Positions 8,654-46,200 of a DNA stretch of 64,000 bases are shown one piece after another. Source of the stretch: Squalus acanthias (Eukaryota); the NCBI GenBank assembly GCA_030390025.1, contig CM059432.1:69628001-69692000 (forward strand). The letters are read 5' to 3'. Every line of letters begins with the position of its first letter. Position 1 is the stretch's first letter. A program made the translations under genes and the position numbers. The notes beneath the pieces were generated by a model. It did no database searches, had not been told where the DNA came from, and worked only from the letters and a program-made list of their open reading frames with translations.

Positions 8654-8748
8654 ACAACAGAAAACGCTGGAAAAACTCAGCAGGCCAGGCAGCATCCGTG
8701 GAGAGAGAAAGAGAGTTAACGTTTCAGGTCGATGACCTTTCATCAGAA
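8654..8748 (-). mobile_element. Short Penelope-like terminal fragment with hammerhead core (family ACGT)
   Basis: A 13-bp TSD atatcttgcaaaa flanks it (8641-8653, 8749-8761), and it is absent from duplicate copy 2. The minus strand reads CTGATGA-A-AGGTC-atc-GACCT-GAAA-CGTT-AACT. Confidence 0.8.
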
Positions 8749-9003
8749 ATATCTTGCAAAATTTTGCAATGAGTCTGAGACAGGTGGTAGAAGCAGTTGA
8801 ACTCAAATACCATGAGATGATGGCCTCCTCAATGCCAAGAGTCTTATTGTCATAGTTTGCAGCCAGTCACCTCACCTTTAGGTAGCATCTAGAAGGATCC
8901 ACTAGAGTACGACTCAGGACGTCATGCAGTGGCACTAAGGGGAAGCATAGTGACAGGAAACATAATGGGCTGTAATGACAGGAGGGGGGTTAAAATAAAC
9001 ATT

Positions 9004-9762
9004 GGCCCGTATTTTCCGATCGGAGGCTTCCTGCGTGTGGAGGCCTCCGATCTGGAAAAAATCTACGCCCTTACCTGAGGGCTCCGGAGGTCCGGACATT
9101 TCCGCTCCTGGGTCTCTCCACTACGAAATGCGCAGGGCCCAGGTATCCCAGGGGCGCATACAGTTCGCAAGCATCCCTGGGATTACGTGGGCCATGGGGA
9201 ACCAATGAAAGAAGGGAATCCCCCTTCATACTTTTGACCGGTCTCTCGGCTGAGACCCGTCAAAAGTATGAATGGGGATCACTCCAAAAACACATCAAAA
9301 CATTAAATAATTTTTTTTTTAAATCACGTTTTTAAAATTAGTTAAAATCACATTAAATATTTTGAACAAAAATTTAATTTTTTGGAAAAAAAATTTACGG
9401 GGCTAAAAATAAATTTACCTTTTTTAAAAGTATTTGTAAATTATAAATGAGTGGGAAAAAAAAATTTTTTTAAACTTTTTTTTAAACTCTTATGCTGGTA
9501 AAAGCAGGCCTTACGCCTGCTTTTACCAGGCGTCAGATTTTTAAAGGATTTCAGAGGGCGGAGGTTCCGCAAAAAGTGGAACTCTCCACCCGCAGAGGCC
9601 CTTCTCCAGGGCAGGCGTCCGATCTGTCAAGAGGATTCATGACAGATCGGAAGTGCCGGTTTTCAGCGCATGCTCTTCGCGTGCCTGAAATAGGCACTTG
9701 TGAGGTCCTTACGGGTGTGTACACAGCTTGTACACACCCGTAGGGATTGGAAATTACGGGCC
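9004..9762. mobile_element. Non-autonomous Harbinger-type MITE (GGCCCGTA termini)
   Basis: TIRs are ggcccgtattttcc / ggaaattacgggcc with a 3-bp TSD ATT. The empty site is visible in duplicate copy 2 (aaacattatgttg, about 17770). A second copy lies at 38204-38924. Confidence 0.9.
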
Positions 9763-9999
9763 ATTATGTTGCATATGAAGTTGCTGTGGTTGATATGAAT
9801 GTCCCTTTCTAGTGTTTGAACTCTTTTGGATGTAATAGCATGAGACTGAGCTGTCTGATTTGTGGAGTGAGCAACATAGTGTTCTGAAATGAAAACAGAA
9901 AATGCTGGAAACACTCAGCAGATCAGGCAGCATCTGTTCTGTTTGGACACAGCTGAAAGGAAGTCGGTATATGCTCGTAGCATATGGCTCAGCAATGGG

Positions 10000-10700
10000 A
10001 GAATGCTAGTTGCTGGCGAAGGCTTCCCTATTAATCTGGTTATGTACAGCTCTTGCAGCCTTCAAGAAAAGGCAGTTGGCCTCCCTTTCCTGCTGATGCT
10101 AGTCTGAGTGTGGCTCCTGTGGACCTGGTTCGCCTTCCTCCGATGCATTCCCTACAGCCAGGACTCTTTGTAGGGCAAAAAGTTGCAGTATCAGGGACAT
10201 GAACGGCCAAATGCCTGCCATCTATCACACCCTGCATCGTGGGAAGGCCAACCCATTAGTAGAACTGAATAGCTCTCTCATGCTGCTGCTAATGGGACAT
10301 ATCAGAATTTCTGAATTGGCTTGCCTTTGCAAATGAGGCATCAGTAACCTGTTGGTTGGATGGATGCATGCACTGTGGATTGGCTGATGTTCGTAATGTC
10401 CCATGTTTCAGTCCGAAATGATCCTGTGGCTAAGAAATTCAGGGTTGTGATGATGTTGACGATCACGCAGTGCGGTCTAAACATTGGCGGTGAGCTGGAA
10501 GTCTGGTTCCAGGAGGTGGCACAGCTGATCCAGGACTTCCCAGCTGAAGTGTAGCCTCCTCAAACAAAGCTCCTGGCTCATTTGCAGATAGGAGTACCAA
10601 GGTATTTGCACTTTGGTGGGTACTGATGGGAGGGTCTCATCCTCCTCCTATGTTGTCGAATTAGTCTGGCTTCCCTGCGTTCTCCCTTATCTTCTTCTGA
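10000..10700 (-). pseudogene. Degraded HARBI1-like Harbinger transposase remnant (duplicate copy 1, internally deleted)
   Basis: Minus-strand MQGVIDGRHLA motif. It is homologous to 18010-19090 but lacks about 390 bp of that copy. Confidence 0.75.
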
Positions 10701-10951
10701 GAAACAGGGAAATTCTCATAGGAAACCTGTGCTACCATGACAGTGGATTAGAGTCAAAAAATTTGAAGGCCTATAGCGCTTTCGGTAAAGGAGGAAGATG
10801 AAAGCATAAGTCAAAAGCAAAAAACTAAATAAATCAGTTGAAGGAAATACAAGGATTTATCAAGCAAATGTACTTTTGCTTGTTTGGTCCCTGTAAACAC
10901 TACTTTCTCCTTGACAAGCTGATCCTGGCAAGCAAACATGCCTGCTTTATA

Positions 10952-11388
10952 AAATTGAGAAGTCGCACAACACCAGGTTATAGTCCAACAGATTTATTTA
11001 ATTTTACAAGCTTTCGGAGCAGTTCGCTCCTTCGTCAGGTAAGTTAGCAGTGAGAGAATCTCCCAGAATTCACAATTTAAACACAGACAAAATCTATTCA
11101 CATCTGTCCCTACATCAAAGAGCACAGCCAAGACAATGAGATGTGTCCCAGGGGGTCCAACGTGTCAAACCACCTGCTGGCTGCATATCCTGTCAATTTG
11201 TGTAGGTTCTTGTGTTAGTCTTTTTAAAAAAAAAAACACCTGGGAAGACCGGCCATGATGTCAAGTCACGTTCTGTATCGTGACATGAACCCGATATCGC
11301 GATTGAGGCCATCCTCATGAGTGCGGAACTTGGCTATCAGTTTCTGCTCTATGATTTTGCGCTGTCGTGTATCTCGAAGGCCGCCTTG
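10952..11388 (-). mobile_element. 5'-truncated Penelope-like retroelement: GIY-YIG endonuclease C-terminus plus 3' terminal repeat with hammerhead
   Basis: The minus strand from 11388 translates QGGLRDTRQRKIIEQKLIAKFRTHEDGLNRDIGFMSRYRT*, the E..I..F.T....GLN pattern of PLE GIY-YIG ends. It is absent from duplicate copy 2. The terminal ~120 bp matches 45333-45455. Confidence 0.85.
11004..11042 (-). ncRNA. Minimal type I hammerhead ribozyme motif (PLE-type)
   Basis: Minus strand reads TTAC-CTGACGA-A-GGAGC-gaact-GCTCC-GAAA-GC-TT-GTAA. This gives the CUGANGA and GAAA core, stems I and II, and a palindromic AGCU in place of stem III. Confidence 0.75.
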
Positions 11389-12051
11389 TGGGATTGCAGC
11401 AGAAGGGCCAAAATTAAGCTAGGACGTGGCACATCTGCGTCCCGGCCTTCCTTGCCAGTTTCCACAGAGCCTCCTCCATTCTAAACATGGTTACCTGTGT
11501 GTGAGGGGTCATGGCCGTGGAAGGGACTTTTGTCCTTGAAATAATTCATACCAGGCTCCTGGTCACTGCAAATGTGACACACCTAGCGGTCTAGGCCTGT
11601 GTCCTGGCCTGGAAAAATTAAAGATTTAAAAAAATTCTTGTTTTTTCCAGCTCATTTAGGGAGCCAATGGGGCAGAATCTATGTAGAAGCCTGTGCCAGG
11701 ATTCTCACCACCCTTATCCCCTTTCACCAACTGGCAGGTGCCTGAGATGTACCGCAGTAGCACAGGTGCCTGGCATTGATATTTTAATGAAGGAACCTCT
11801 TCCTGACCCAAGAAAGTGCAGCGGGATCAGGAGCGAAGTTTCCTGATGGCCATTCGCAGCACTTACTGACCAAAGGCCCACAGGTTTTTGGGGCCTTGAT
11901 GTATAACCACACACATATGTCGACAAAAAGCTGATCATCAGGTTAATTAGCCTTCATACAGAATGAAAAGGACGTTTTAATTATTATTAGCTATATACAT
12001 GAATAATTGTTTCAAGTAACTAATTAACGTTGAATCTCATGTCTAATGCAG

Positions 12052-12141
12052 TGAAGAAGAAGAATCTTCAGAAAAGTATAAGCTTGCTGAGCCTTTCAGA
12101 ACACATTCAGGAAACACCAAAAATAAGGAAATCTGTCAGTA
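12052..12141 (+). CDS. Candidate 90-nt phase-1/phase-1 host-gene exon, copy 1 (xKKKNLQKSISLLSLSEHIQETPKIRKSVS)
   Basis: Acceptor ctaatgcag| and donor |gtaagt. The length is a multiple of 3, only the phase-1 frame is open in both duplicate copies, and that phase matches the exon at 42686. Confidence 0.55.
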
Positions 12142-13020
12142 GTAAGTATTACATAAAACCGAAAATGGTGGAAATGCTCAGTACACAGTAGATTTACACA
12201 GAGTAATACAAAATGAAAGTTCTCTTCACTATTGACGTGTAGAGTGAGAAATTCGAACCTCAGCCACACCGGGCGCAAACTTGTAAAAGCAACTGTTCTG
12301 TATGCTGGCCTTGAGGCCCGAGTCAAATTTGGCATTGGTCCTCCTTTTAATGGAACCAGTGAGCTTTGGGTGTCAAACGTTCGTTTTGATAAAAGTCTTG
12401 ATAAATTCGGTCTGACTCCAACACCAAGCCAGCACGCATGGTAGGTCCTGGGATCAGGGAAGGTGAAGCCAAGTGGGTGAGCCTGGGCCAGCTACGTCCC
12501 ATGGTTTTTGTTTTAGGATTGCTCCTTCTGGCTCCACAAAAATATGGGGGAGAAATTCTGTACCTTAGTACATCGAGTTAGCGTCTGGCGGGGGCGCTAA
12601 CGGGGCAGTACTGCCGCGACGAGGCGAATCCAGCGATGCATGCCAAATGCGCACCACTGTAGTGCCGGGGACTTCAGTGCCAGACAGACCATGACGTCAG
12701 TGAGCGTGCAACGCTCACTGGGCGCCTGATCAGCAAAATTGATTATCGCCCCTGCCTTAGCGCCTCGCCCCGACAGTGACAAGGAGAGGAGGCGTGAAGC
12801 AGTCGGTAGACAGCTTCAGGGGTGCTACTTAAAAGGATCATGAGTAATGAGTTGCAGCTCTCAGGTTAGTGCTGGTTCACTGCTTCCTTGTTAGTTTGAC
12901 ATTGTGCAACAGTTGAAATCAGTCATTTAAAGGTTGTTTAGTCTCCGGAGTGTTGTGGCTACTAAAAATTAATTACATTTATTATCACAACATATCAAAG
13001 TGTTACACATCGTTGCATTA

Positions 13021-14606
13021 ATGGGGGCTGTACTGGCAGTCGACCTCGCCCTCCAGGATCTAGAAACATAGAAACTAGGAGCAGGAGTAGGCCATTCGGC
13101 CCGTCGAGCCTGCTCCACCATTCAATACGATCATGGCTGATCAACCAAATCCAGTACCCTGTCCCTGCTTTAATCCCCACAGTACACATATCCCACCCTA
13201 CCCCCGTAACCCCACATATTTAATTCCCCCTAACATATCCCATCCTATCCCCATAACCCCACATATTTAATACCCCCCTAACACTAAGGGTCAATTTATC
13301 ATAGCCAAATCAACCTAACCCACACATTTTTGGATTGTGGGAGGAAACCGGAGCACCCGGAGGAAACCCACGCAGACACGGGGAGAATGTGCAAACTCCA
13401 CACAGACAGTCACCCGAGGTCAGATTCGAACCCGGGTCCCTGGCGCTGTGAGGCACCAGTGCTAACCACTATGCCACGGTGGAGGGAGCGGAGCAGCGAG
13501 AAAGACTGGAACATGTGGCCAGAGAGAGGAGGAGAGCCATCAGGGCTCTCAACAGGAGGCCTTACCCTCCGAGGGTATTCTGACAGCACTTCTCCTATGT
13601 TCAATTAAGCGAGCAGCAGTCTATTAGAAGGCTCTGCTTCACCAAGGAGGTGGTCACAGAACTCTGCCACCTCCTGCAACCAGACCTCTGGCCTCAGATC
13701 AGGACGACCACAGCTCTCTCAGTGGCAGTCAGGGTCACCGTCGCCCTCAATTTCTTTTCCAGCGGATCCTTTCAGTCTGCAACAGGTGATATAACTGACA
13801 TCTCACAGTTTGCCGTCCATCGTTGCATCTGGGAGGTCACAGAGGCTCTCTACAGTAGGAGAAGGGACTACATTTCCTTCCCCAGCACCAGAGAGAAGCA
13901 GGACGAGCGTGCATGTGGCTTTGCCAGGATAGCGGGATTCCCCATGGTGCAGGACGCCATTGACTGCACCCATGTGGCTTTGTGGGCACCGCCTAATAAT
14001 CCTGACATCTTCCGTAACCACAAAGGCTACCACTTACTTAGTGTGCAGTTGGTGTGCGACTACACACAGCGAATTCTCAATGTGAATGCCCGCTATCCTG
14101 GCAGAAGCCAGAATGCCTTCATCCTGTGCCAGACCGGTGTGCCAGCACTCTTTCAGCCACCACATCAAGCTTGCGGCTGGCTGGTCGGAGACAAGGGCTA
14201 TCTGCTCTCCACCTGGCTCGTGACTCCCCTCCGCAAATCCAACACTCCTGCCCAACACTCGCATAATGAGAGCCATGCAGCCACCAGGAATATCATTGAG
14301 CAGACCATCGGGGTACTCGAGCAACGGTTCCGCTGCCTTGACCGCTCGGGAGGAGCCCTCCAGTACTCGGCTGAGCGGGTGTCCCATTTTGTCGTCGTCT
14401 GCTGCACATGCCACAATTTGGCCATCATGAGGGCCCAGCCCTTGTCACCAGGGATTGCGGGACCACCTCAGCAGGAGGAAGAAGGAGAGGAGGAGGACGA
14501 GGAAGAAGAGGTAGACGAGGAGGATGAGGAACTGGAGCGAGGGAGGAGGCAGCCACTTAATCGCGGCCTTCCAGAAGGGCGGTCCATCAGACTGCAGTTC
14601 AAATGA
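13021..14606 (+). pseudogene. HARBI1-like DDE transposase, interrupted by a SINE
   Basis: ORF 13650..14606 has GFPMVQDAIDCTHV, GWLVGDKGY, HAATRNIIEQTIGVLEQRFRCL and an acidic tail. The 5' end is split by the SINE. Confidence 0.9.
13061..13476 (-). mobile_element. tRNA-derived V-SINE (HE1-like) with CR1-derived 3' tail
   Basis: The minus strand has an A box (tggcatagtggttag), a B box (ggttcgaatc) and the V-core tgtgtggagtttgcacattctccccgtgtctgcgtgggtttcctccggg. Its tail is shared with local CR1 3' ends. It is absent from family A copy 2. Confidence 0.85.
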
Positions 14607-14775
14607 ATGAAACCCCAGATCCCCATTGCTCACCACATCCCCATCATTCCATCACTGTCGCAGGCTATTTTGCAGCGCAAAGCTGAAATGAAACACACCA
14701 CAAAATAATCCAAACTGAATTAATAGATTTATCAATAATCAGTTAGCACATATTTACAACAACAATATTAACTAT

Positions 14776-16995
14776 TCACCCTTGTGCAATCCCTTCGTGC
14801 CTCTCGTTATAGTCTACTCTAGTGCTCCTACAAAGTGTTAGCCTTGTGGCTGCAGCACGGCTGGTGGAAGGCTGCTGAGTGTCCATGCAGGAGACTTGAG
14901 ATGGCCTTGCAGGACGCCCTCGACCAGCTCTGGGCCTGGAAGGCCTGGCTGTAGACTGCACCACCTCAGCATGGGCGGCTTCAGTCTGGGCTGGCTGGAT
15001 GACAGGCAGCGACAAGGGCAATGGCAGAGTGCCAGCGGTGGGAGCAGGAATGCTGTCATCCTGAGAGAGGACAGCAGGTTCCTGCTCCACTGACCCTTCC
15101 CTGGGGCAGCACCTCAGCATCCCTAGCAATCTGTTGCAGCACAGACTGCTGGCCTGCTGCGACACCGTGAAAGCCCCGGTTGACGGTGGTAGACCCAGCC
15201 ACGATGGCAGCAGCCAGAGCTTGCGTGGCATCAAGCTGAGACTGCATGAGAGCGGTCTGAGATTGAATGCCGCCAAGCATAGACTGCATTACAGCACTAA
15301 GACGTTCCGTCTCTTCTGCCTGTGCTGCAATGGAAGCTGCCAGATCACCAATCACACGCGGCACCAGGTCTGGGTCGCTACGGTCTCTCTGGGAGTTGAC
15401 CATCCTTTCCAGACTGGAAATGATGGGCTCCATGGAGTGCACAGAGCTTTGTGCAATGTTGGAGGGGGACTCCTCCACTCTCCTTACCATTGCCGACAGG
15501 CTCTCAGAACACCTTTCCATTGCACCTATCATCTCCGTGTGCATGCCCATCACCCTTCTTCTAAAGGCCTCCCCATCGAGATCCTCATCTGAGTCCTGTG
15601 CAGCACAACTCGCTCTCCGAGGAGCTGGCCCCCGAGCTATCCTTTCCCCTCGCCTTGCTGCAGCCAGCTCGTCCCCGGTGCATCACCCTGTGCAGATCCC
15701 GCTACTCTACTAGCCTCTATCTGAGCTGGTGCCTGCGGGTGAGACATGCAGTGACGTGGTGTCTTCTTCCTCCTCCTCTTCTCCCGCCTCGCTCTCAATG
15801 GTGCCCTCAGGGACAGGCTGCTCAGCTGTTTGCTCATTATCTGAAAGCATAAAGGCACAAGAGTCGGGTTAAGGTGAGGGGAGGGGGGCAGGAAGGGAGA
15901 AAGGCATGCGTACAGCATGATTAGCGGGAAAGTGCGAAAGGCTTGTGGGGTGAGGGGAAGTGGGATGTGAGAAGAAGGAGTAGGGATGAACATACCGTTG
16001 TTGTCCCCAAGGGGGTCAACGTCGCCAGTAGCCATGGTGCCCACCACCTGGCACCCAATAATCTCCGGCACTCTATTTTCCAGTGTAGACAGTGGTTGAG
16101 TGTCTGCTTGTCCCCCACCTGTGTGCTCCTGCTCCCTCCTGTTGTGAGCCACCTTGGCCTGCAAGAGAAAGGAAAGTGTGTGAGTGAGTGTGGAGCAATG
16201 TGCTTGGGTGTTGTGCCTGCCATAGTTGAATAGCTGTCATTGTGTGCAAGGTGTGAGATGTGGATGTGAGTGTTGGTAGGTAGAGATTGTTAGTGGGTGA
16301 GTGCCAGGAGTGTGGTGCTTTGGCCAGTGTGTGCAGACTGTGGTTCAAATGGTGGTACATGAAACTATCTTTTAACCGGCACCCAAATAACCGGAAATCT
16401 CTCTTAACCGGCAAAATTCTTGAGTAGGTAACCGGGGTTTTCCTTCATCTCACCTTTAAAAATAACTTTTTAAAAAACCGAGGCGTTTGCCTTGTATTGG
16501 AGCATGTAGATTGGGAGGGGAATGTGTAGCCCGGGTAGGCAGCGGACACGACAGATGGTCAGCTGGCGGTCCCCGGGGAGTCGGAGCTCCGAATGCAGGC
16601 GCATGTCAGTGTGTACGGGGCTCTCGTACGTTGGGAGATATAACTCTCCATTATCCGGCCTTTTTGATTAACAGGCACCACGCCGGTCCCGTCGGTGCCG
16701 GTTAATAAAGAATTTCCTGTATGTAGCATTTGCTGAGGCATTGACTCACCCTGACCACCCGAGTGAGGTCATTAAATTTCTTCCTGCACTGTGTGTGGGT
16801 CCTTGGGACCACAGTGCTGCCTAAGACATGCTGGGCAACCTCCCTCCACATGGCATGGAAGACTTGCGGCAAGGGCCTCCTGCCACTTGCTGGGTAGAGC
16901 ACTGCCCTCCATCTCTCCACAGCGGACACCATCTCCTCCAATGCTTGGTCCGAAAAACTGCGGGCTCCCTCCCTGGGGCGTGGATCTGCCATCAT
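14776..16995 (-). pseudogene. Harbinger Myb/SANT-like DNA-binding gene, 3 exons (16995-16750, 16158-15996, 15840-~14776), frameshifted in exon 3
   Basis: RSFSDQALE..WREVA..RTHTQCRKKFNDL is a Myb/SANT-like trihelix motif. Minus-strand junctions gtgag, tgcag, gtatg and ttcag are present. Confidence 0.85.
16358..16719. mobile_element. Tc1/mariner-pogo-type MITE in intron 1 of the Myb gene
   Basis: TA TSD and imperfect ~26-bp TIRs catgaaactatcttttaaccggcacc / ggtgccggttaataaagaatttcctg. The empty site ggtggtatgtagc is at about 46790 in copy 2. Confidence 0.8.
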
Positions 16996-18009
16996 GACAC
17001 CTGCTTGAGTCGTCCGGCTCCTTGGGCTTGGCCTGCTCCTGCTTGCTGACACAGGTTCACAGCCTGCAATGCTGAGAATGAAGTTCTGCAGCATCAATGA
17101 ACCTCCCCTTTAAGAACTGGAAAGAGCCTGTGGCAATGATGACTTACGATTAGACTGCACCTGATATTGGTTAGTGCTTTCAGTGCAGCGCCACTGAGCT
17201 AGGCCATTAGCGCTTGATTTAGCGCTCCAATCCTTTCTTTGAGCGATGATACTTAATTTTGCGTGCAGCATTATTCATTTGCGCCTGGTGCTAAATCTCA
17301 AACTTTTCTGAAATTACCGCCCGTTCCTGGGCTGTAATGAATTTCTCCCCCTATAAATATAAGGTTTTGTGGCCATTTCTTGAGCGGCTTCTAGCAGCCC
17401 CTTTATGGATCTCTGGTTAGGCCGCACAAACCTGGTTCAGCTATGCAGAGTTCCTCCATTTTGCCTAATCTTTGCCTGTTTATATTTCTGCCTGATTCCT
17501 GCCCATTTTACACCGTGAAAAATTTTGCAGTGAGTCTGAGACAACTGGTAGAAGCAGGTGGACTCAAATACCATGAGATGATGGCCTCCTCCGTGCCAAG
17601 GGTCTCATTGTCATAGTTTTCAGCCAGTCACCTTTCATGACCCTGACCTTTAGGTAACATCTAGAAGGATCCACTAGAGTAGGACTCAGGACGTCATGCA
17701 GTGGCACTAAGGGGAAGCATAGTGACAGGCAACAGAAGGGACTGTAATGACAAGATGGGGTGAAAATAAACATTATGTTGCATATGAAGTTGGTGTGGTT
17801 GATATGAATGTCCCTTTCTAGTTTTTGAACTCTTTCGAATGTAATAGCATGAGACTGAGCTGTCTGATCTGTGGAGTGAGCAACATAGTGTTCTGAAATA
17901 AAAACAGAAAATGCTGGAAACACTCAGCAGATCAGGCAGCATCTGTTCTGTTTGGACACAGCTGAAAGGAAGTCAGTATATGTTCAGAGCACTCTTTCGG
18001 CAATGGGAG

Positions 18010-19090
18010 AATGCTAGTTGCTGGCGAAGGCTTCCTTATTAATCTGGTTATGTACAGCTCTTGCAGCCTTCAAGACAAGGCATTTGGCCTCCTTTTCCTG
18101 CTGATGCTGGTCTGAGTGTGGCTCCTGTGGACCTGGTTCGCCTTCCTCCAATGCATTCCCTGCAACCAGATCTCTTTGTAAGACAAAAAGTTGCAGTATG
18201 CAACACATAAGCAATATTCAGGTGATCCTAGCTGTAATGTATTGCACAGACCCATCAAAACCATCCAGGTAGTTTAATCTACCTTTGAGCATTCCGATAG
18301 AGTGCTCAATGATGACTCTGGTGGCAGCATGGGCACCATTGTAGCATTGCTCTGCAGGTTTTGGGGAATTCGCAGAGGTGTCATCAGCAATGAGATCAGT
18401 AGGTATCCTTTCTCCCCAAGTAGCCGCCAACACCCTTGTCTGTCTGGATGAAACAGTGCTGGCATGGTAGACTGCCTTAAGACAAAAGTATTGTGGTAGC
18501 TGACAGCATAGTAAGCATTGAAATGCAGGGTCCTATATGATAGAATGGTATCTTTTTCCATTGATGTAATGAGTTGGATTAATATAGGGGACACGAATGG
18601 CCAAATGCCTGCCATCACACCCTGTATCGTGGGAAAGCCAACCCCTTAGTAGAACTGAATAGCTCTCTCATGCTGCTGCCAATGGGACATTCCAGAATTT
18701 CTGAATTGGCTTGCCTTTGCAAATGAGGCATCAGTAACCTGTTGGTTGGATTTGTGCGTGCACTGTGGATTGGCTGATGTTTGTAATGTCCTATGTTTCA
18801 GCCTGGAATGATCCTGTGGCTAAGAAATTCAGGGTTGTGATGACTTTGACGATCACGCAGTGTGGTCTAAACATTGGAGGTAAGCTGGAAGTCTGGTTCC
18901 AGGAGGTGGCACAGCTGATCCAGAACTTCCCAGCTGAAGTGCAGCCTTCTCAAACAAAGCTCCTGGCTCATTTGTAGATAGGAGTACCAAGGTATTTACA
19001 CTTTGGTGGGTACTGATGGGAGGGTCTCATCCTCCTCCTATGTTGTCGAATTAGTCTGCCTTCCCTGCATTCTTCCTTATCTTCGCCCTC
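18010..19090 (-). pseudogene. Degraded HARBI1-like transposase remnant (duplicate copy 2)
   Basis: ORF 18218..18433 reads YNGAHAATRVIIEHSIGMLKGR and the region has many frameshifts. Confidence 0.8.
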
Positions 19091-19159
19091 CAAATAATTG
19101 AGAAACAGGGAAATTCTCATAGGAAACCTGTGCTACCTTGACAGTGGATTAGAGTCAAA

Positions 19160-20025
19160 GGGCTGGATTTTACCAGCCCTGAGGAGGTGGGTTTGGAGGC
19201 GGGACTGCTGGGAAAATCCCAAAAAATTGGAGCGGGTCCCAAACCCGCTCCCAACCCGCCTTCAACCAATCTTCTCGGGATTCGGGTCCCCGATTTGCGC
19301 AGGGACCCGACTCCTAGCAGCGGGAAGAGGATTATAGCCACTATATGCCTGTTAACAGGTAGTTAACAGGCAGTTAAGAGGCTTTTTCCCATTTTACGAC
19401 TTCTGCTGCGGGCTTCCTGACGCCGGGGAACCCCGACAGGGTAAGTGAGGGGTGCTATGGGTCTGTTGTTATGTTGGTGTTTGGATGACAGCTGCAGAGG
19501 TGGTGTGAAGGATGCATTGGGACACTGGTTACTTTCAGAGGTAAGGAAATATTGTGAAAGTAATTTTTAATGTGGTTAGATGTTTCTGCAGGTGACAAGC
19601 TTTGAAGTGTTTGTGTAGCCTCATCTCATCGGGAGAAGTGACAGATGGCTTCTGCAATCTCAGCTGCAGCTGCCATCTGTTTTATCCTAAGGAGAGAGTA
19701 ATTGGAGAGTCTGGGTACAAGGGCTCACCTTTGGACAGTGATTGTCAGTGTTTGACAGCACCTCAATGCTGTCAAACACTGACAATTCATCTGTCAAACA
19801 AGTGTGGTGCATATGCCTTTAAGAAAAGCGGCAGATGAAGCGTCATCAACTGATGTCATCCGACTCTGGCTTTCCCTTAATTGGCCGGCAAGGCTGCAGG
19901 GCGGGCTTAACAAGGCCAATCAGGGCAAAATAGCGTCTGTTCGTCAGACGTTGCTGGGGGCGGGACTGGAACCCAAAAACCAGCAGTCCCGCCTCGAACT
20001 CGGCCTGGAAGGTAAGATTCCGCCC
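19160..20025. mobile_element. Non-autonomous Harbinger-type element (GGGCTGGATTTT family)
   Basis: Termini gggctggattttacc / ggtaagattccgccc with TSD AAA. The empty site is in copy 1 (gagtcaaaaaatttg, about 10755). Confidence 0.85.
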
Positions 20026-20964
20026 AAAAGATTTGAAGGCCCATAACACTTTCGGTAAAGGAGGAAGATGAAAGCATAAGTCAAAAGCAAAAAACTAAAT
20101 AAATCAGTTGAAGGAAATACAAGGATTTATCAAGCAAATGTACTTTTGCTTGTTTGGTCCCTGTAAACACTACTTTCTCCTTGACAAGCTGATCCTGGCA
20201 AGCAAACATGCCTGCTTTATAAAAGCACAAGTAGCATTGAATGCAAATTAAGTGGTAACGATGAGAATATGGACTTTCTCTGTTCATTAATATCTATAAT
20301 CTAATGTTAATAAGAACTGGGAGCTGCAAATCTGAGGCCCTTCTGGTGGGATTGCAGCAGAAGGGCCAAAATTAAGCTAGGACGTGGCACATCTGCGTCC
20401 CGGCCTTCCTTGCCAGTTTCCACAGAGCCTCCTCCATTCTAAACATGGTTACCTGTGTGTGAGGGGTCATGGCCGTGGAAGGGACTTTTGTCCTTGAAAT
20501 AAGTCATACCAGGTCTGTGTCCTGGCCTGGAAAAATTAAAGATTAAAATTTTTTTTTTTCCAGCTCATTTAGGGAGCCAATGGGGCAGAATCTATGTAGA
20601 AGCCTGTGCCAGGATTCTCGCCACCCTTATCCCCTCTCACCAACTGGCAGGTGCCTGAGATGTACCGCAGTAGCACAGGTGTCTGGCATTGATATTTTAA
20701 TGAGGGAACCTCTTCCTGACCCAAGAAAGTGCAGCGGGATCAGGAGCGGAGTTTCCTGATGGCCATTCACAGCACTTACTGACCAAAGGCCCACAGGTTT
20801 TTGGGGCCTTGATGTATAACCACACACATACGTAGACAAAAAGCTGATCATCAGGTTAATTAGCCTTCATACAGAATGAAAAGGACATTTTAATCATTAT
20901 TAGCTATATACATTAATAATTGTTTCAAGTAACTAATTAACATTGAATCTCATGTCTAATGCAG

Positions 20965-21054
20965 TGAAAAAGAAAAATCTTCAGAACAGTAGAAGTTTGC
21001 TGAACGTTTCAGAACACATTCAGGAAACACCAAAAAAAAATAAACCTGTCAGTA
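20965..21054 (+). CDS. Candidate 90-nt phase-1/phase-1 host-gene exon, copy 2 (xKKKNLQNSRSLLNVSEHIQETPKKNKPVS)
   Basis: Same acceptor and donor as 12052-12141 with no indel. The phase-0 and phase-2 frames contain stops. Confidence 0.55.
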
Positions 21055-21673
21055 GTAAGTATTACATAAAACCGAAAATGGTGGAAGTGCTCAATACACA
21101 GTACAAAATGTAAATTCTCTTCACTATTGACATATTGAGGGGGGAATTTTTTACTGCAAAGGGCGAGTGGGTTTGGGAGCGTGTGGGTGGTTAAAAGTGC
21201 TGAAATTGACAGCGTCGGGAATTTGGCTCAAACCCGCCAATTTGCGCATTTAACTGGAGCGCGTTCGGCTGCGTGTGAGTAACCGCCTCGGGAGAGGAGG
21301 ATTGCCAATTTAAATATATTAAGAGGTAATTAACAACTTTTTAAACAGGTGTTTTAAACGTTAACTGTGGCTGCACTGGTTTCCCAGACTTCATGGTCCT
21401 CGCCATTGAAAGCAAGGCGAGAGCACAGCGGCAATTGAGGGGGCTGAACAAATGACAGGCAGAAAATCCCATGAGTACTGAGACCTCACACCTGCTTCAT
21501 TGCCTAAGTGAAAGGCTTTTGCTCACAGCACTTGTTCTGAGAGTTTGCTTTCAGTACTTTGCCGATGATTTCTGCTACCTTGAATGTGGTTTCTACTACC
21601 TTGGAGGTGAATCCCACTACTTTGGAAGTTTGTGCATCTGATCTCCACTTTCCACCTGTTATATATCAGATCA

Positions 21674-21903
21674 TGATGCGGAGATGCCGGTGTTGGACTG
21701 GGGTGGACAAAATTGAGAGGTCGCACAACACCAGGTTATAGTCCAACAGTTTTATTTGAAATCACAAGCTTTCGGAGCTATCGATTGCCCCTTCCTCAGG
21801 TGAAGTAGGAACTTCACCTGAGGAAGGGGCAATCGATAGCTCCGAAAGCTTGTGATTTCAAATAAAACTGTTGGACTATAACCTGGTGTTGTGCGACCTC
21901 TCA
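21674..21903. mobile_element. Penelope-like inverted terminal repeat insertion forming a ~95-bp-arm perfect hairpin
   Basis: Arms 21712-21806 and 21811-21905 surround an AGGA loop. A 13-bp TSD atatatcagatca flanks the insertion. The arms are homologous to the PLE terminus at 10952-11045. Confidence 0.85.
21814..21855 (+). ncRNA. Minimal hammerhead ribozyme motif (mirrored on the minus strand in the other arm)
   Basis: TCAC-CTGAGGA-A-GGGGC-aatcgata-GCTCC-GAAA-GC-TT-GTGA. Confidence 0.75.
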
Positions 21904-23443
21904 ATATATCAGATCAGCATGGGTGCCCAGCAGCAACAACACCAGCAGGAGCAGGAGCAACAGCAGCCTTCTCCACACAGACCTGCCGCTCCACCGGAGA
22001 GAGGGGATGAGCACAAGAGGTGCAGCTCGCAAGAGGAAATACCCACAACACGGTATATAGGCAGACGATCAGCTTCCTGGACATGACTGAACACCAGTGC
22101 CTCAGGAGGCTCAGGTTATCGTGTCAAGTTGTAGCAGACATTTACAGCCTGCTGGAACAAGACCTGCTGCCAAGTGGACCTGGTGGCCACACTTTACCAG
22201 TGGCAGTCAAAGTGACCACCACCCTCAACGTTTTCGCTTCGGGCTCCTTCCAGGATTAGCAGGAGACATTTTCAGGATTTCGCAGTTGGCTGCCCACAAA
22301 TGCATCACACAGGTGACTGATGCCATGTTTGTCAGGGCAGTTAATTATGTACACTTTGCCACCGATGAAGCCAGTCAGAATGAGCGGGCGCTCAGGTTTG
22401 CGGCTCTGGTAGGCTCCCCACAACTGCAGGGCATCATTGACTGCACACATGTGGCAATCAAGGCACCCTCCAGATCAACCAGTTGTGAAATGTAACGGCT
22501 TCCACTCCATCAATGTGCAGCTCGTCTGCAACCACAAAAAGATCATTATGCAGGTCTGTGCAAGATTCTGAGAGAGCTGCCATGATGCATTTGTCGTGCG
22601 CCAGTCCACCCTCCCTGAGCTCTTCGCACCTCCAAACAGACTTACCGGCTGGTTGCTTGGAGACAAGTGCTATCCGCTTAAAACGTGGCTGATGACACCC
22701 ATGAGGAGCCCAAGCAAGGAGGCCCAAGAGTGCTACAATCAAAGCCATATGACGACGAGATGCGTCATTGAGCAAGCAATCGGGATGCTGAAGATGCAGA
22801 ATGTCCGTTCACTTGCGAACAAGGCCCTTGCCACCCATGAGCTTATTGAAACCTGGCTGAGGGGTGATGACACCTTCTCCCTAAATGAAGCCTCCCCACC
22901 TGACTATACCTTCCACCACTTGCCCCGCCCAGACCATCACGGTGGCGGTGCGGCTCTTATCGCCAAATCACATCTTGGTCTGTCCCCCTACTGCTCTGGT
23001 ACTTGCCCCTCCTTTGAGCATCTCACCTTGTTCCACCCCTCTCACCTCTCATTTAAAATCCATGTTCTCTACCGCCTACCCAAGTACCATAAAGATTTTC
23101 TCACCGAGGTATCTTCATTGTTTTCCTCCCTTAGTCTCTGCACCAAGCGACTTCTCATCCTCGGTAACTTCAGCCTCCATCTCAATTCATCATGCGCTCT
23201 CTCACAATAATCATGGGGGACTTTAATCTTCATATCGACTGGGCAAATCAAATTGGCAAAGATAGTCTGGAAGACGAATTCATGGAATGCATTCAAGACA
23301 ATTTCTGAGAACAATACGTCATGGAACCAAACAGAAAACAGGCTATTTTAGATCTAGTATTGTGTAATGATACAGGGTTAATTAGTAATCTCATAGTAAA
23401 GGATCCTCTGGGGAAGAGTGATCACAATATGTTAGAAATTCAC

Positions 23444-23670
23444 ATACAAAAGCAAAATACTGCGGATGCTGGAAATCTGAAATAAAAATAGAAAATGCTG
23501 GAAATACTCAGCAGGTCAGGCAGCATCTGTGGAGAGAGAAACAGAGTTAACGTTTCAGGTCGATGACCCTTTCTGACGAAGTTCTGATGAAGGGTTATCG
23601 TCCTGAAACGTTAACTCTGTTTCTCTCTCCACAGATGCTGCCTGACCTGAGTATTTCCAACATTTTCTGT
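23444..23670. mobile_element. Penelope-like inverted-repeat insertion (family ACGT) with hammerhead core at 23580-23616 (+)
   Basis: Imperfect hairpin with ~80-bp arms and a 16-bp TSD tatgWtagaaattcac (1 mismatch). The core reads AGTT-CTGATGA-AGGG-ttatcg-TCCT-GAAA-CG-TT-AACT. Confidence 0.8.
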
Positions 23671-24225
23671 TATGATAGAAATTCACGTTGAGTTTGAGAG
23701 TGAAATACTTCAGTTGGAAACGAGAGCCTTAAACTTAAATAAAGCCAATTACATAGGTATGAGGGGTGAGTTGGCTAAGGTAGATTGGGAAATTAGATTA
23801 AAAGGTATGACGGTAGATAAGCAGTAGCAAACATTTAAAGAAATATTCCAAAATTCTCAATGAATATACATTCCATTGAGAAATAAAAACTCCACAGGAA
23901 AAGTGATTCATCTGTGGCTAACTAAAGAAGTTAATGATAGTATTAGATTAAAAGAAGAGGCTTATAATATTGCGAAGAATACTAGTAAGCCTGAGGATTG
24001 GGAGAGCTTCAGAAACCAGCATAGGATGACCAAAAAATTGATAAAAAGGGAGAGAATAGAATATGACAGTAAACTAGCAAGAAATATAAAACAGATTGTA
24101 AGAGCTTCTACAAGTATGTAAAAAGGAAGAGAGTAGCAAAAGGAAACATTGGTCCCTTAGAGGCTGAGACAGGTGAAATTATAATCGGGAATAAGGAAAT
24201 AGCAGAGACTATAAACAAATATTAT

Positions 24226-36120: not shown

Positions 36121-36176
36121 CGATTCCATGCCAAATTACAGCAGTATTTGTGTTTTATACAGCCAAAAAAATATAT

Positions 36177-38113: not shown

Positions 38114-38203
38114 TGTATCACAAACTCTGAAATGTTTCTGTAATTAGCTTGGTTCAAATTGTTGTTAATCCTAAAATGGAACTACGTACAGTTTTCAGAT
38201 AAC

Positions 38204-38924: not shown

Positions 38925-39073
38925 AATAATTATTCTAGTACATTAGCTGCTTGATTGAGCAGAGAATAGTAAGTATTTCAATGACTACTTATTTGAACTA
39001 TTAGAAAAGGACACAGAAATATGCTCTATTATGTTGAAAGTAACCATGAAGATTTTAATACTTTAACATCATA

Positions 39074-40680: not shown

Positions 40681-42170
40681 CATTTATATTTTGGTCTTGG
40701 TGCCTCTTAAACATGTTAATTAATCAAAATAACAATGTCATTAGATATTATGAGGCTGCAAATCCACGGCTTTTCCGGCACACTCTAAGCATAACTTCAG
40801 CATGAGTGCCAGAAATTCACTACTGGGATTGCAGGGTGGTCTCTTGAGGGTGGAGTATCGACTCATCCCAAAAAAAGCCATCATCGTGAGGGGATGATGG
40901 GACTACCAAGGTCGGGAGTTCCCACGTTCCCGTCCCTAAGAGGGACCCAGCATAGGTTGGAGGAGGTATGCCTGGTGTCTACCTGCTAAATAGTGGAAGT
41001 GGGGTCCACCTGTGGTCCAGGCTAGGATCGTGACCTGGTACACCAATGTGGAGCTGTTTTAAAAAAAAAAAAAAAAAATTTGACCCCCTTACTAAGATAG
41101 TTTACAGATGTTTAGGGGAACTTTACTGCTGAACTTTACGGACTGCTCGGTAGGCAGATGCCGCAAATATGGCCTTATGGCCCCGCCCCCCCCCCCCAAC
41201 ATCCCCCTCATTGCCAGAGGACCTCTGTCAAGACCACGAGCATTGGTGGGGTTAACAATGGAAAGCCCAGGCAGGTGCATCTTGACAATTATGCTGGGAT
41301 GAGTTTCACCTTCCCGCCTCCCCCTCACCCCGCCCAAAGATTTTCAGGGTCTCTTTTTCGGCTGCACATAATGACACTACTATTCCCGACCAGAGTGAAG
41401 ATGATTGGGTAATTGCCCCCGTCAATCACGCCTGGAGATTGCACTGCTGTAAGTGACTGGGATTGATTTTATGCACATAATTTGTATTATGTATCTATCC
41501 TTCACTCACTGCAGTTTGCTGGAGAAATAATCAAGTTGTAATTTGTAACTGTCTTCCACTCAATGCATTTTCCTGGAGAAATCACCATTCTTTTATCGGA
41601 AGAAGTTGCTGCAGTTTTGGTCGGGCATGAGTTCTGTTTGCTGCAGTTTGTAGACTCTTTTTAAATAGATTCTGTAAATAAACTTTGTTTGCTTTGCTGT
41701 TTGCTGAAAAATACACTTGTTGACTGTAAGTCCCGCCCCGCCTCAAACTCATTGGCTGACACAGTGGTGTCAATAGACACTCTGCTTTTTCTTATGTTAT
41801 GCTTTTTTCAGTTTTGCTGTGTTTTAATCAAAAGGAAAATGTATAAAAAGTTAGGGATGTGTATTAACCAAAATCAGTTAACCTTACAGTATAAGTCAGG
41901 CCTTGAAAATTGACCAATCGTACCATTAAAATGCTTGAATTGTAAAATATCTAAATAGCAAAGCAAGGAATCAAATTTAAACAGAGGCTTAATTGAGCAA
42001 TCTGTCAATAATCACATTACGCCAAGACTATTTATCTGCTGTATGCGATGTCCTCTACCATTTCTTCAACCAGTACATGTGAGAAAATCTGTATGATTGT
42101 TGAGGAAAGGGTCTGGAGGATATATTTGATTCCAAATTGAAGAGAAACTTTTCTCCATGGGTTATGACAG

Positions 42171-42224
42171 TTGCTTCAGCATCCTATACCTCCTGGACAA
42201 ATAGAAATACAATTCACGGCTCAG
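42171..42224 (+). CDS. Possible 54-nt phase-1/phase-1 linker exon (xASASYTSWTNRNTIHGS)
   Basis: Flanked by gacag| and |gtttgt, open, and phase-compatible with its neighbours. Splice signals are weak and there is no homology support. Confidence 0.25.
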
Positions 42225-42685
42225 GTTTGTGCACCAGAGAGGTTTAATTTCCTTACTGACACAGACTTCATTGTTGAGATCAGAGATATGAATATGGGCT
42301 AAAATCCTTTAGTTGAAATATGAAAAGAAACCTTTGGATACATAAATGTCATATTCCTAATCAAAATGATTTTCAGCCATAGCAAACCTTCCTGGTAGTT
42401 CGCGCTTTGTGGAGGCTTAACGCAGATAATAAAACGGATCCATATGCAGTTTTTGTGTATGCAGCTCTATTTTTCATAATTCTTGCAATTTATCTGTTTA
42501 ATATCTTCTCTTTAGATGATATTGCTATACATGCAGAATAAAGCATTGCTTAAGTTGATTCATATATGCCATGTAACAATTTTTTTTGTTTTTGTGAGCT
42601 ATGAAAATGCTTCTTACAAGAAACGTGTGTTTTCAGAATTTTGTTTTTTTAAATTACTGTTTATTTTTAATGTTCCTTATGATAG

Positions 42686-42867
42686 GGGTCTCTAAAATGA
42701 ATGATACTTCTGAGAAGTGGAAAGTGGTGACAAGGACAGGTGAGGCAGGCACAAAAGCCAAAGTTTCCATGTGGGCTTATGGTGACCAAGGTATGACAGG
42801 ACCAATGAGTCTTCAGAAAAGCAACAATACAAATGCCTTTCTTTCCAATCAAAGTGATGAATTTCAG
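42686..42867 (+). CDS. RP1: Host gene exon, PLAT domain N-terminal part (RP1-like long form)
   Basis: atag|..|gtaacc. Encodes GVSKMNDTSEKWKVVTRTGEAGTKAKVSMWAYGDQGMTGPMSLQKSNNTNAFLSNQSDEFQ, with the PLAT W/Y.V...TG..GT.A.V....YG..G pattern. The symbol is from recalled similarity, not a search. Confidence 0.8.
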
Positions 42868-43080
42868 GTAACCTACATAACTCTTTTCCAGTTTCTTGCT
42901 CAAAGATTTTCTTGTTTGCAGTTGCTAGAAGTAGTTACTATTTCCTTGAAGAGATGATCAAAATGCATTTAAATTGTTGTAATGATAGAAATATATACTG
43001 TTACACCAGAAGTTCCCACAGTGCTATGCTTTATGGCTTATAGGTCAAAAATTGTCAAGTAATCTGTTTTTAATCTTTAG

Positions 43081-43167
43081 ATCAATATGAAAAATGTTGG
43101 TCAGATCTATAAGATTCGCATTGCACACGATGACTCAAGCAAACAACCACACTGGAAGTTGGAAAAG
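43081..43167 (+). CDS. RP1: Host gene exon, PLAT domain middle
   Basis: ctttag|..|gtactt, 87 nt, phase 0/0. Encodes INMKNVGQIYKIRIAHDDSSKQPHWKLEK (G.I.KIRI.HD....W.L PLAT motif). It is not in the ORF track. Confidence 0.85.
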
Positions 43168-43281
43168 GTACTTATTTTTAGATGTATACAATAAAGTTTG
43201 GATCTGGCAGTTAGTGTAATGTTTTCTACAATTATCTTAGTAATTATAAGATGTCTGTATAATTGTTCAGATAAAGATAAA

Positions 43282-46200
43282 GGGGGAAAAATTCAGTTGG
43301 ATAGCGCCTCCACTTAGCACCTGGCAGGGGTGCTAATGGGGTGCTGATGCAGTCATGCCGGGGCGAGGCAAATCCAGCCCCCCAAAGTGCCGCCACTACG
43401 AATTACCACTGGGGACCTCAGCGCCAGGCAGATCGTGACGTCAGTGAGCATGCCCCGCCCCGACAGCGACAGGGAGAGGAGGCGTCAAGCAGGTGGATGC
43501 CGGCGCCAGGGGCGCCACTTAAAGGGATCATGAGTAATGAGCCGCAGCTGTCGGGTTAGTGCTGGTTCACTGCTTCCTTGTCAGTTTGACATTGTGCAAG
43601 TTTAATTCAGTCATTTAAAGGTTGTTTAGTATCAGGAGTGTTGTGGCTACTAACAATTAGTTACATTTATTCTCACAACATATCAAAGTTCCACACTTGA
43701 TTACATTAATGGGGGCTGTACTGGCAGTCAACCTCACCCTCCAGGATCTACGGTGGAGGGAGCGGAGGCAGCGAGAAAGATTGGAACATGTGGCCAGAGG
43801 GAGGAGAAGGACCATGAGGGCTCGCAACAGGAGGCCTTACCCTCTGAGGGTATTCCGAGAGCACAACTCCTACCTCCAATTAAGTGAGGAGCAGTGCATT
43901 AGAAGGCTCCGCTTCAGCAAGGAAGTGGTCACAGAACTCTGCCACATCCTGCAACCAGACCTTGAGCCTCAGATCAGGGCGACCACGGCTCTCTCAGTGG
44001 CAGTCAAGGTCACCGTCGTCCACAATTTCTTCACCAGCGGATCCTTTCAGTCTGCAACAGGAGATATAGCTAACATCTCGCAGTTTGCCATCCATCGCAG
44101 CATCCGGGAGGTCACAGAGGCGCTCTACAGTAGGAGAAGGAACTACATGTCCTTCCCCATCACCAGAGAGAAGCAGGAGGAACGTGCATGTGGCTTTGCC
44201 AGGATAGCGGGCTTCCCCATGGTCCAGGGCACCATTGACTGCACCCACATGGCTTTGCGGATACCGCATAACAATCCAGACATCTTCTGTAACTGCAAAG
44301 GCTATCACTCACTTAATGTGCAGTTGGTGTGCGACCACAGACAGCGAATCCTCAATGTCATGTCCGCTATCCTGGCAGCAGGCACGATGCCTTCATCCTG
44401 AGCCAGACCAGTGTGCCAGCACTCTTCCAGCCACCACATCAAGCTCGCGGCTGGCTGGTTGGAGACAGGGGCTATCCGCTCTCCACCTGGCTCATGACTC
44501 TCCTCCGCAACCCCAACACTCCTGCCCAGCACTCATATAATGAGAGCCACGCTGCCACCAGGAACATCATTGAGCAGACCATCGGGGTGCTCAAGCAACG
44601 GTTCCGCTGCCTTGACTAATCGGGAGGAGCCCTCCAGTACTCGGCTGAGCGGGTGTCTCATTTCGTTGTGGTCTGCTGGATGCTCCACAACTTGGCCATC
44701 ATGAGGGCCCAGCCCTTGCCACCAGGGATTGCGGGACCACCTCAGCAGGAGGAAGAGGGAGAGGAGGAGGAAGACGAGGAGGAGGAGGAACAGGAGCGAG
44801 GGAGGAGGCAGCCACTCAATCAGCCTTCCGGAAGGGCAGTCCGTGACCGGCTCATCAGACTGTGGTTCCAATAAATTAAACCCCAGATCCCCGTTGCTCA
44901 CCACATCCCCATCATTCCATCCGTGTTGCAGGCCATATCACAGCGCAAAGCTGAAATGAGATACATCACAAAATAATCCAAATTGAATTAATAAATTTAT
45001 CAATAATAAGTGAACACAAATTTACAGCAACATTATTACCTATTCACCCTTGTGCAATTCCTTGGTGCCTCTTGTTACTGCGCCTTTGCCTACTCTAGTG
45101 CTCCTAGGAAGTGTTGGCCCAGTAGCTGCAGCAGTGCTGGTGGAAGGCTGCTGAGAGCCCGTGTGGGAGATTTCAGATGGTCTTGCAGAATGCCTCCACC
45201 CTGGAAGTCCCGGCTGTAGACTGCACCACCTCAGCATGAGCGACAGCAGTCTGGGCTGGCTGGATGACAGGCAGCGACAAGGAAAATGGTGGAGTGCCAG
45301 TGGCGGGAGCAGGAATGCTGTCATCCTGAGAGGTGAATTCTGGGAGATTCTCTCATTGCTAACTTACCTGACGAAGGAGCGAACTGCTTCGAAAGCTTGT
45401 AAAATTAAATAAATCTGTTGGACTATAACCTGGTGTTGTGCGACTTCTCATTTTTATCCTGAGAGAGGACAGCAGGATCGTGCTCCACTGAACCACTGCC
45501 ACTCCCCCAGGGCAGCACCTAAGCATCCTTAGCAATCTGTTGCAGCACAGATTGCTGGCCTGCTGCGACACCGTGAAAGCCCCGGTCGATGGTGGTAGAC
45601 CCAGCCACGATGGCAACAGTCAGAGCTTGCGTTGCATCAAGCTGAGACTGCATGAGTGCAGTCTGAGATTGAATGCCACCAAGCATAGACTGCATTACAG
45701 CAGTAAGGAGTTGCGTCACTTCCGCCTGTGCTGCAATGGAAGCTGCCAGATCGCCTATCACACGTGGCATCAGGTCTGGGTTGCCACAGTCTCTCTGGGA
45801 GTCTACCATCCTTTGCAGACTGTAAATGATGTGCTCCATGGTGTGCGCAGAGCTTTGTGCAATGTTGGAGGCGGACTCCTCCACGCTCCTTACCATTGCC
45901 AAGCGCCTCTTGCACACCTTTGCCATTGCACCTATCATCTCCGTGTGCATGCCCATCACCCTTGTTCTAAAGGCCTCCCCATCAAGGTCCTCATCTGAGT
46001 CCTGTGCAGCAGAACTTGCGTGCGAAGTCGCCCTCCGGAGAACTGGCGCCCAAGCTACCCTTTCCCCCTGGATTTGCTGCAGCCCACTCGTCCCCGGTGT
46101 ATCACCCTGTGCAGATCCCGCTACTATACTAGTCTCTAAAGAACGCGTAGTACCAATATCTGAGCTGGTGCCTGCGGGTGAGACATGCAGTGACCCAGTG

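What the first reader, a model, noticed from the sequence alone, without database searches (positions are those of the whole stretch)
8654..45455. Dispersed hammerhead-ribozyme mini-insertions from two Penelope-like families, with covariation visible inside the window
Seen in sequence: five insertions (8654-8748, 10952-11388, 21674-21903, 23444-23670, 45333-45455) contain CUGANGA, a stem II and GAAA, followed by a 4-nt palindrome (AGCU or ACGU) and a U. Stem I covaries (TCAC/GTGA versus TTAC/GTAA, and AGTT/AACT in the other family). The stem II loop and the N7 position vary while pairing is kept. Four insertions have 10-16 bp TSDs and are only 95-230 bp long. Established: PLE terminal repeats carry minimal type I hammerheads that can act as dimers through a palindromic stem III. 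Inference: these are ribozyme-bearing units recently mobilised by PLE machinery, and three motifs are sense to the host gene.
Basis: partly seen in the sequence, partly recalled or inferred. Interest (0 to 1): 0.7.

Follow-up and report, generated by a model that had tools for sequence, protein, structure and literature searches.

The report
Penelope retrotransposon ends carrying hammerheads
The five short inserts are real, cut-short copies of two very abundant Penelope-type jumping genes that carry a small, untested self-cutting RNA motif; they are a known kind of debris, but in each family many copies begin at one spot, which likely marks where the element's RNA starts.

Summary
The motifs are real: 5 strict minimal hammerheads, against 0 in 100 simulated windows. 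They are not a separate mini-element. All five inserts are hammerhead-bearing terminal repeats (pLTRs) of two Neptune-type Penelope-like families. Insert B still encodes the endonuclease C-terminus, and A and E are 100% identical to long copies. Each family has tens of thousands of arms. Truncation, head-to-head arms, a one-sided tail and TSDs are all published PLE features. The core is conserved among source lineages, but 5' ends show no excess at the cleavage site. Ends are ragged, yet fall 7-10 times more often per base at a predicted initiator about 30 nt behind a TATA-like box. That spot lies 4 nt before the core in one family and 12-13 nt before it in the other. The peak therefore tracks the promoter, not the ribozyme, and likely records run-off at the RNA 5' end. 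I did not find this in print. This scan has noted it at least eight times in other genomes. Three sense and three antisense motifs is chance level.

The parts
8654..8748 (-). Insert A: single-arm family 2 pLTR piece, 95 bp, no tail; 5' end 2 nt before the CUGAUGA core (core at 8746, predicted cleavage after 8718); stem I cut to 2 bp
   Evidence: 100% identical to the end of long copy L055; absent from a contig of organism B
8641..8653 (+). 13-bp TSD of A, left copy (right copy 8749-8761)
10952..11388 (-). Insert B: 5'-truncated family 1 element made of the last 40 codons of the ORF, the pLTR and the hammerhead (core 11038, predicted cleavage after 11008); no TSD, about 120 bp of target DNA lost
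   Evidence: 96% identical to L031; paralogue near 20225-20342 and organism B contig
11269..11388 (-). C-terminal end of the PLE GIY-YIG endonuclease reading frame
   Evidence: translation matches the C-terminus of the 872-aa frame in L031
21674..21903 (.). Insert C: head-to-head fold-back of a family 1 subfamily; left arm with the 40-bp tail, right arm without; complete motifs on both strands (21799 -, 21818 +); 13-bp TSD at 21661-21673 and 21904-21916
23444..23675 (.). Insert D: head-to-head fold-back of family 2; left arm tailed and lacking CUGA, right arm with motif at 23584 +; 8-nt duplicate of the core at the joint; 11-bp TSD at 23433-23443 and 23676-23686
45333..45455 (+). Insert E: single-arm family 1 pLTR piece, 123 bp, no tail; 5' end 35 nt before the core (45368), predicted cleavage after 45398; 10-bp TSD at 45323-45332 and 45456-45465; sits in a Harbinger-like repeat (label recalled) whose paralogue has the empty site near 15058
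   Evidence: 100% identical to L031
45353..45358 (+). Predicted initiator of family 1 (A at 45355, 13 nt before the core); in B the TATA-like box lies about 30 nt upstream of the matching site
   Evidence: consensus match read from the sequence; 5'-end peak at -12 to -14; no transcript data
42687..42868 (+). Candidate host exon (PLAT/LH2 domain), used only to orient the host gene
   Evidence: Pfam PF01477 at E=3e-4, below the curated cut-off; AG...GT borders

Best explanation
The five inserts are truncated insertions of two autonomous Neptune-type Penelope-like retrotransposons, and the hammerhead comes along because it sits in the terminal repeat next to where reverse transcription likely starts. 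Shown: in full-length copies the order is TATA-like box, initiator-like site, hammerhead, a 30-45 bp tail, then the ORF start; insertions end at either side of that tail and carry 10-17 bp TSDs. Inferred, by analogy with the anole Poseidon element: the protein primes reverse transcription internally near the ORF start. Priming in a downstream repeat of a tandem read-through RNA would give ordinary ragged truncations such as B and E. Priming in the first repeat would run off the RNA 5' end after about 85-130 nt, giving the very short class (A, C, D) whose starts pile up at the predicted initiator. The template is likely uncleaved RNA. The ribozyme is likely under selection only in source elements, and the dispersed copies are likely inert.
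For: RT plus a C-x4-C-x2-C linker plus a GIY-YIG-like ORF lies upstream of both motifs. The repeat-tail-ATG order is seen in 9 of 20 family 1 loci and 6 of 20 family 2 loci. One tailed arm occurs in 26 of 26 fold-backs and in 28 of 29 read by eye (overlapping samples). Sampled 5' ends: family 2 has 26 of 70 arms at +11..-10 versus 3 of 44 at -11..-60; family 1 has 20 of 85 at -4..-25 versus 1 at -26..-46. Genome-wide family 2: 3,074 of 27,671 hits for ends at -6..+8 versus 131 of 7,992 for -26..-13, about 2.5-3.0% versus 0.30% per base, with the mode at -4/-3/-2. Genome-wide family 1: 578 of 8,328 hits; 43 of 99 listed ends at -12..-14 versus 18 at -15..-23; only 72 hits over the ribozyme's own 5' edge, -6..+8, at most about 0.45% per base. 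The -13 position was written down before that search. No excess at the cleavage site: 10 of 100 versus 10, 7, 7 and 9 at neighbouring positions.
Against: No transcript 5' end was observed; the TATA and initiator calls are consensus matches from recall. Single-base tallies were made by eye from the first 100 listed hits, which include paired fold-back arms and tandem duplicates, so they are not independent. Capture fractions (0.25-0.45) are my estimates. Family 1 also has 17 ends at -7 and 10 at -10, and 18 of 99 lie upstream of -14. In family 2 the predicted start coincides with the 5' edge of stem I and is 2 nt from a possible splice acceptor. Some -4 ends are fold-backs on stem I or share a recurrent context. 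An extra cap-derived G could not be shown. The D. virilis Penelope promoter is described as TATA-less and internal (PMC2377424 passages).
Confidence: 0.72

Rival explanations
1. The short copies are a separate non-autonomous, ribozyme-headed unit (SINE-like or retrozyme-like) with its own masters, mobilised in trans by PLE protein.
For: 5' ends pile up near the core. Internally deleted tandem mini-units of family 2, with periods of about 260-390 bp, exist in 10 of 20 loci and could act as templates. bioRxiv 10.64898/2026.07.22.740005 reports such derivatives in vertebrates.
Against: A and E are 100% identical to long copies and B keeps coding sequence. Short copies occur in many subfamily variants and their ends are ragged. 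Copies starting at the peak lack the TATA-like box. None of the five inserts is tandem.
Confidence: 0.1
2. The pile-up is a stall or snap-back hot spot caused by RNA or cDNA structure at the hammerhead, with no link to the transcription start.
For: Fold-back apices do use the motif: 19 of 100 listed family 1 ends sit on the stem III palindrome, and some family 2 joints use stem I. The family 2 peak coincides with the stem I edge.
Against: The same zone (-6..+8) is about six times colder in family 1, whose peak lies 8-9 nt upstream of stem I, at its own initiator-like site. Many peak ends join plain flank rather than a fold-back arm.
Confidence: 0.15
3. Dispersed copies are active ribozymes that cut host pre-mRNA as intermolecular dimers, or the short inserts are copies of cleaved RNA.
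For: Intact cores and palindromic stem III; three motifs are sense to a candidate host exon.
Against: Three of six sense is chance level. No 5'-end excess at the cleavage site in family 1. Published minimal motifs do not cleave as monomers and only weakly as dimers (PMC4209133), and the anole motif needs its protein (PMC11167929). C pairs with its own antisense arm. Only C and E share a palindrome among the sense copies, and they are 23 kb apart.
Confidence: 0.03

Closest known systems
Insertion units of endonuclease-bearing Penelope-like elements (Neptune, Penelope/Poseidon): Craig et al. 2021 PMC8557442; Arkhipova et al. 2013 PMC3846280 (passages read)
   Same: Heavy 5' truncation, adjacent inverted truncated copy, 30-40 bp tail at one end only, TSDs, palindromes at the inverted joint, RT plus Zn-finger linker plus C-terminal GIY-YIG, TATA- and Inr-like motifs in the pLTR.
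   Different: The passages I read give no 5'-end distribution; here ends peak at a predicted start site in two families.
Minimal type I hammerheads of metazoan PLEs: Cervera and De la Pena 2014 PMC4209133 (results and discussion read)
   Same: Short stem I, extra base between positions 9 and 10.1, palindromic stem III, mostly single dispersed motifs attributed to truncated PLEs, and pairs 100-700 bp apart on opposite strands.
   Different: New sequences in this genome; stem II is 5-6 bp rather than 7-8; activity is untested here.
Poseidon element of Anolis carolinensis (PAc): Frangieh et al. 2024 PMC11167929 (main text read)
   Same: Two internal RT start points defining the tail; uncleaved RNA as the main template.
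   Different: In PAc the ORF starts at stem II and RT starts 111-118 nt inside the ORF; here the tail ends at the ATG (family 1) or about 40 nt before it (family 2). No biochemistry was done here.
Non-LTR retrozymes: Li, Clavereau and Pollet, bioRxiv 10.64898/2026.07.22.740005 (introduction to discussion read)
   Same: Non-coding, hammerhead-bearing, pLTR-derived; monomers are dispersed.
   Different: Retrozymes are defined as tandem units; the five inserts are single or head-to-head.

Membership tests
EN+ Penelope-like element (Neptune type) | Single ORF with RT followed by a C-terminal GIY-YIG endonuclease, linked to the repeat | tested here: met
   Family 1: 872-aa frame, RVT_1 E=2e-8; its EN was recognised by motif and by alignment to family 2, not by Pfam. 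Family 2: GIY-YIG E=0.006, below the curated cut-off.
EN+ Penelope-like element (Neptune type) | C-x2-5-C-x2-C Zn-finger-like linker between RT and EN | tested here: met
   Visible in both families in the alignment; definition from PMC8557442.
EN+ Penelope-like element (Neptune type) | RT phylogeny groups with Neptune | not tested
   No reference PLE proteins were on hand; the clade call rests on the linker motif, which Nematis shares.
EN+ Penelope-like element (Neptune type) | pLTR from partial tandem, inverted truncated copy, one-sided 30-40 bp tail, TSD | tested here: met
Minimal type I hammerhead of PLEs | CUGANGA, extra base, stem II, GAA, palindromic 15.1-16.1, H17, stem I | tested here: met
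   0 of 14 core positions versus 16 of 31 upstream positions carry shared variants in 65 family 1 arms (p=6e-4)
Minimal type I hammerhead of PLEs | Self-cleavage as a dimer or with protein | not testable with these tools
   Only an indirect genomic test was possible, and it was negative for cleaved templates in family 1.
Non-LTR retrozyme | Tandem head-to-tail units, each with a hammerhead | tested here: not met
   None of the five inserts is tandem; tandem mini-units exist elsewhere in family 2.
Discrete non-autonomous element (SINE-like) | Fixed 5' end | tested here: not met
   Ends run from +39 to beyond -400, with a hot zone about 10-15 nt wide.
Discrete non-autonomous element (SINE-like) | Own diagnostic variants or master lineage | tested here: inconclusive
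   A and E are identical to long copies; no tree was built.

The most novel reading that the evidence does not exclude
The thousands of 85-130 bp hammerhead-headed copies are strong-stop-like run-off cDNAs. PLE reverse transcriptase primes inside the leader of its own uncleaved RNA and copies to the capped 5' end. Their ends therefore map each family's transcription start from DNA alone and give in vivo support for internal initiation, with the ribozyme playing no part in defining the template.
Probability: 0.65. Interest if true: 0.55.

Novelty: new member of a known kind. Interest (0 to 1): 0.38.

Why it matters
As a discovery of ribozyme elements it is ordinary: dispersed and inverted minimal hammerheads from truncated PLEs were described in 2014. 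The useful part is mechanistic. How PLEs prime, stop and form pLTRs is still open, and this genome holds a two-family comparison in which the 5'-end peak follows the predicted promoter rather than the ribozyme. If RNA start mapping confirms it, insertion ends become a free read-out of PLE transcription starts and an in vivo counterpart to the one published biochemical study.

Tried and rejected
Rfam scan: no hammerhead family, only chance hairpin matches. The first motif scan missed four motifs because it lacked the extra base. DNA searches of the own genome with the short inserts returned nothing because common words are skipped. No RNA holder listed; the one guessed RNA run laid gave only repeat-wide coverage. 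Presence or absence of C, D and E in other samples was not examined. The family 2 cleavage-site test was uninformative, being dominated by small deletions and a nested transposon. A cap-derived extra G was considered and not claimed: 9 of 17 ends at -4 have G before them, but 7 of those are fold-backs or one recurrent context. The cluster of family 1 ends near -51 was rejected as a subfamily alignment boundary. A splice-acceptor origin for family 2 ends was disfavoured because -4 and -3 are as common as -2. Minimum-energy folds give the hammerhead-like stems for C and E but not for A and D, with z from -0.7 to -2.2, which is weak either way. No solved-structure match was found for the ORF. The bacterial promoter scan was irrelevant. 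The binomial test used 25 arms where the list gives 26. Rows left out: about ten tandem-duplicate and ten last-listed family 2 places and two family 1 places were not fetched, and one row was excluded as another subfamily. Lunse et al. 2016 was seen only as a reference. Supplements of the papers were not read and may show 5'-end profiles.
Full report
Observation. The regions were read directly. A strict minimal-hammerhead scan finds five motifs (C on both strands, D+, E+, B-) and none in 100 simulated windows. A has the whole core but only 2 bp of stem I, and the minus arm of D lacks the core start. TSDs are 13 (A), 13 (C), 11 (D) and 10 bp (E). B has none: the in-window paralogue and a contig of a related organism both show about 120 bp that is missing beside B. 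The same run lacks A at an otherwise continuous site, so A and B are younger than that split. In two samples of the window's organism, contigs stop at the borders of A and B, consistent with presence. C and D are head-to-head fold-backs. Positions below are counted from the first base of CUGANGA as 0.

Identity. The minus strand of B encodes 40 residues that match the end of an 872-aa frame in locus L031. That frame has an RT domain, a cysteine linker and a GIY-YIG-like end. Family 2 copies lead into a similar ORF that is 32% identical over 414 aligned residues. E and A are 100% identical to long copies. Exact-pattern counts in the 3.7-Gb genome are 3,776 and 19,293 for the motifs, and 19,624, 16,727 and 27,671 for shorter or 3' anchors, split evenly between strands with empty controls. 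In near-full-length copies the repeat is followed by the tail and then the ORF start: 9 of 20 family 1 loci and 6 of 20 family 2 loci. Fold-backs carry the tail on exactly one arm in 26 of 26 cases, with 10-17 bp TSDs; one of 29 had two tails. All of this layout is described in PMC8557442 and PMC3846280 (passages). Dispersed and opposite-strand minimal motifs are described in PMC4209133.

Conservation. In 65 family 1 arms, none of 14 core positions carries a variant shared by three or more copies, against 16 of 31 upstream positions. N7, H17 and loop II vary, and stem II changes keep pairing on one side. Family 2 shows the same pattern in 43 arms. True two-sided covariation is limited to one stem I pair (5 versus 110 motifs), and 33 motifs break the outer pair. 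This points to selection in source elements. It says nothing about the inserted copies.

5' ends. Samples anchored 3' of the ribozyme show ragged ends, with 42 of 78 family 2 arms reaching beyond -50, but also a hot zone. Family 2 has 26 of 70 arms at +11..-10 and 3 of 44 at -11..-60; family 1 has 20 of 85 at -4..-25 and 1 at -26..-46. Both families have an initiator-like site about 30 nt behind a TATA-like box, at -4 in family 2 and -13 in family 1; I noted these before the genome-wide tests. Patterns that demand non-element bases upstream then gave, for family 2, 3,074 of 27,671 hits for ends at -6..+8 and 131 of 7,992 for -26..-13. With my capture estimates this is about 2.5-3.0% versus 0.30% per base. 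By eye, the first 100 listed ends are -6:4, -5:7, -4:17, -3:14, -2:12, -1:7, 0:9 and +1..+8:30. For family 1, 578 of 8,328 hits fall at -6..-23, and of 99 listed ends 43 are at -12..-14, 18 at -15..-23 and 38 at -6..-11. Over the ribozyme's own 5' edge, one family 1 subfamily gives only 72 hits against at least 3,776 arms, at most about 0.45% per base. The peak thus moves with the predicted start and not with the ribozyme. The tallies include paired arms and duplicates, and no RNA start was observed.

Cleavage. Among 100 listed family 1 arms that begin 3' of stem II (608 in all), 10 start at the predicted cleavage product, against 10, 7, 7 and 9 at neighbouring bases; 19 sit on the stem III palindrome as fold-back apices. 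Cleaved RNA is therefore not a favoured template. This agrees with PMC11167929, where unprocessed RNA is the main substrate and the motif cuts only with protein. The family 2 test was uninformative.

Mechanism. Shown: element anatomy, two fixed 3' ends, TSDs, the end distribution and core conservation. Inferred: internal priming near the ORF start, run-off at the RNA 5' end when the first repeat is used (A, C, D), and ordinary truncation when a downstream repeat of a tandem transcript is used (B, E). Whether the second arm of a fold-back arises by snap-back or by priming from the second nick was not resolved; earlier notes propose both.

Host gene. One candidate PLAT exon on the + strand turned up among 130 frames scanned. 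Three motifs are sense and three antisense, which is no signal.

Novelty. Searches for the tail and inversion, the promoter, truncation with transcription start, dimers and sharks showed no paper reporting a 5'-end peak at the start site. Subscription papers and supplements were not seen. This scan has recorded the same reading in at least eight windows of other genomes, which I saw after reaching it; those notes are unreviewed and are not support. Verdict: new members of a known kind, with a moderately interesting and testable mechanistic signature.

Noticed in passing
L260, L262, L265, L266 (G000:C1): An element of about 750-870 bp with terminal inverted repeats sits inside the family 2 hammerhead, at the stem III palindrome, with a 3-bp duplication. 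Both sides are seen in 4 of 10 loci fetched, and about 20 of 100 hits show the same junction, so the site is a recurrent landing spot that breaks the ribozyme. The same terminus occurs five times in the window.
   Followed up: partly
L271, L273-L280, L289: Internally deleted family 2 mini-units (tail plus about 90-130 nt, then a jump to the pLTR) with periods of about 260-390 bp and different junctions: retrozyme-like non-autonomous derivatives in which hammerheads lie in tandem.
   Followed up: partly
window 8586-12253 and 17455-21148: A local duplication of about 3.5 kb; inserts A and B are in the first copy only. A candidate 90-nt + strand exon near 12047-12137 lies in it.
   Followed up: partly
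window 42687-42868: Candidate PLAT/LH2-domain exon on the + strand; gene not identified.
   Followed up: partly
   Followed up: no
window 45323-45332, L255, L243: Family 1 copies in L255 and L243 are inserted within about 20 bp of the same site of the same repeat family as insert E; possible target preference or chance.
   Followed up: no
G000:C1 6.98-7.14 Mb (L074-L079): Family 2 truncated copies repeated within a satellite-like array at about 1.7-kb spacing.
   Followed up: no
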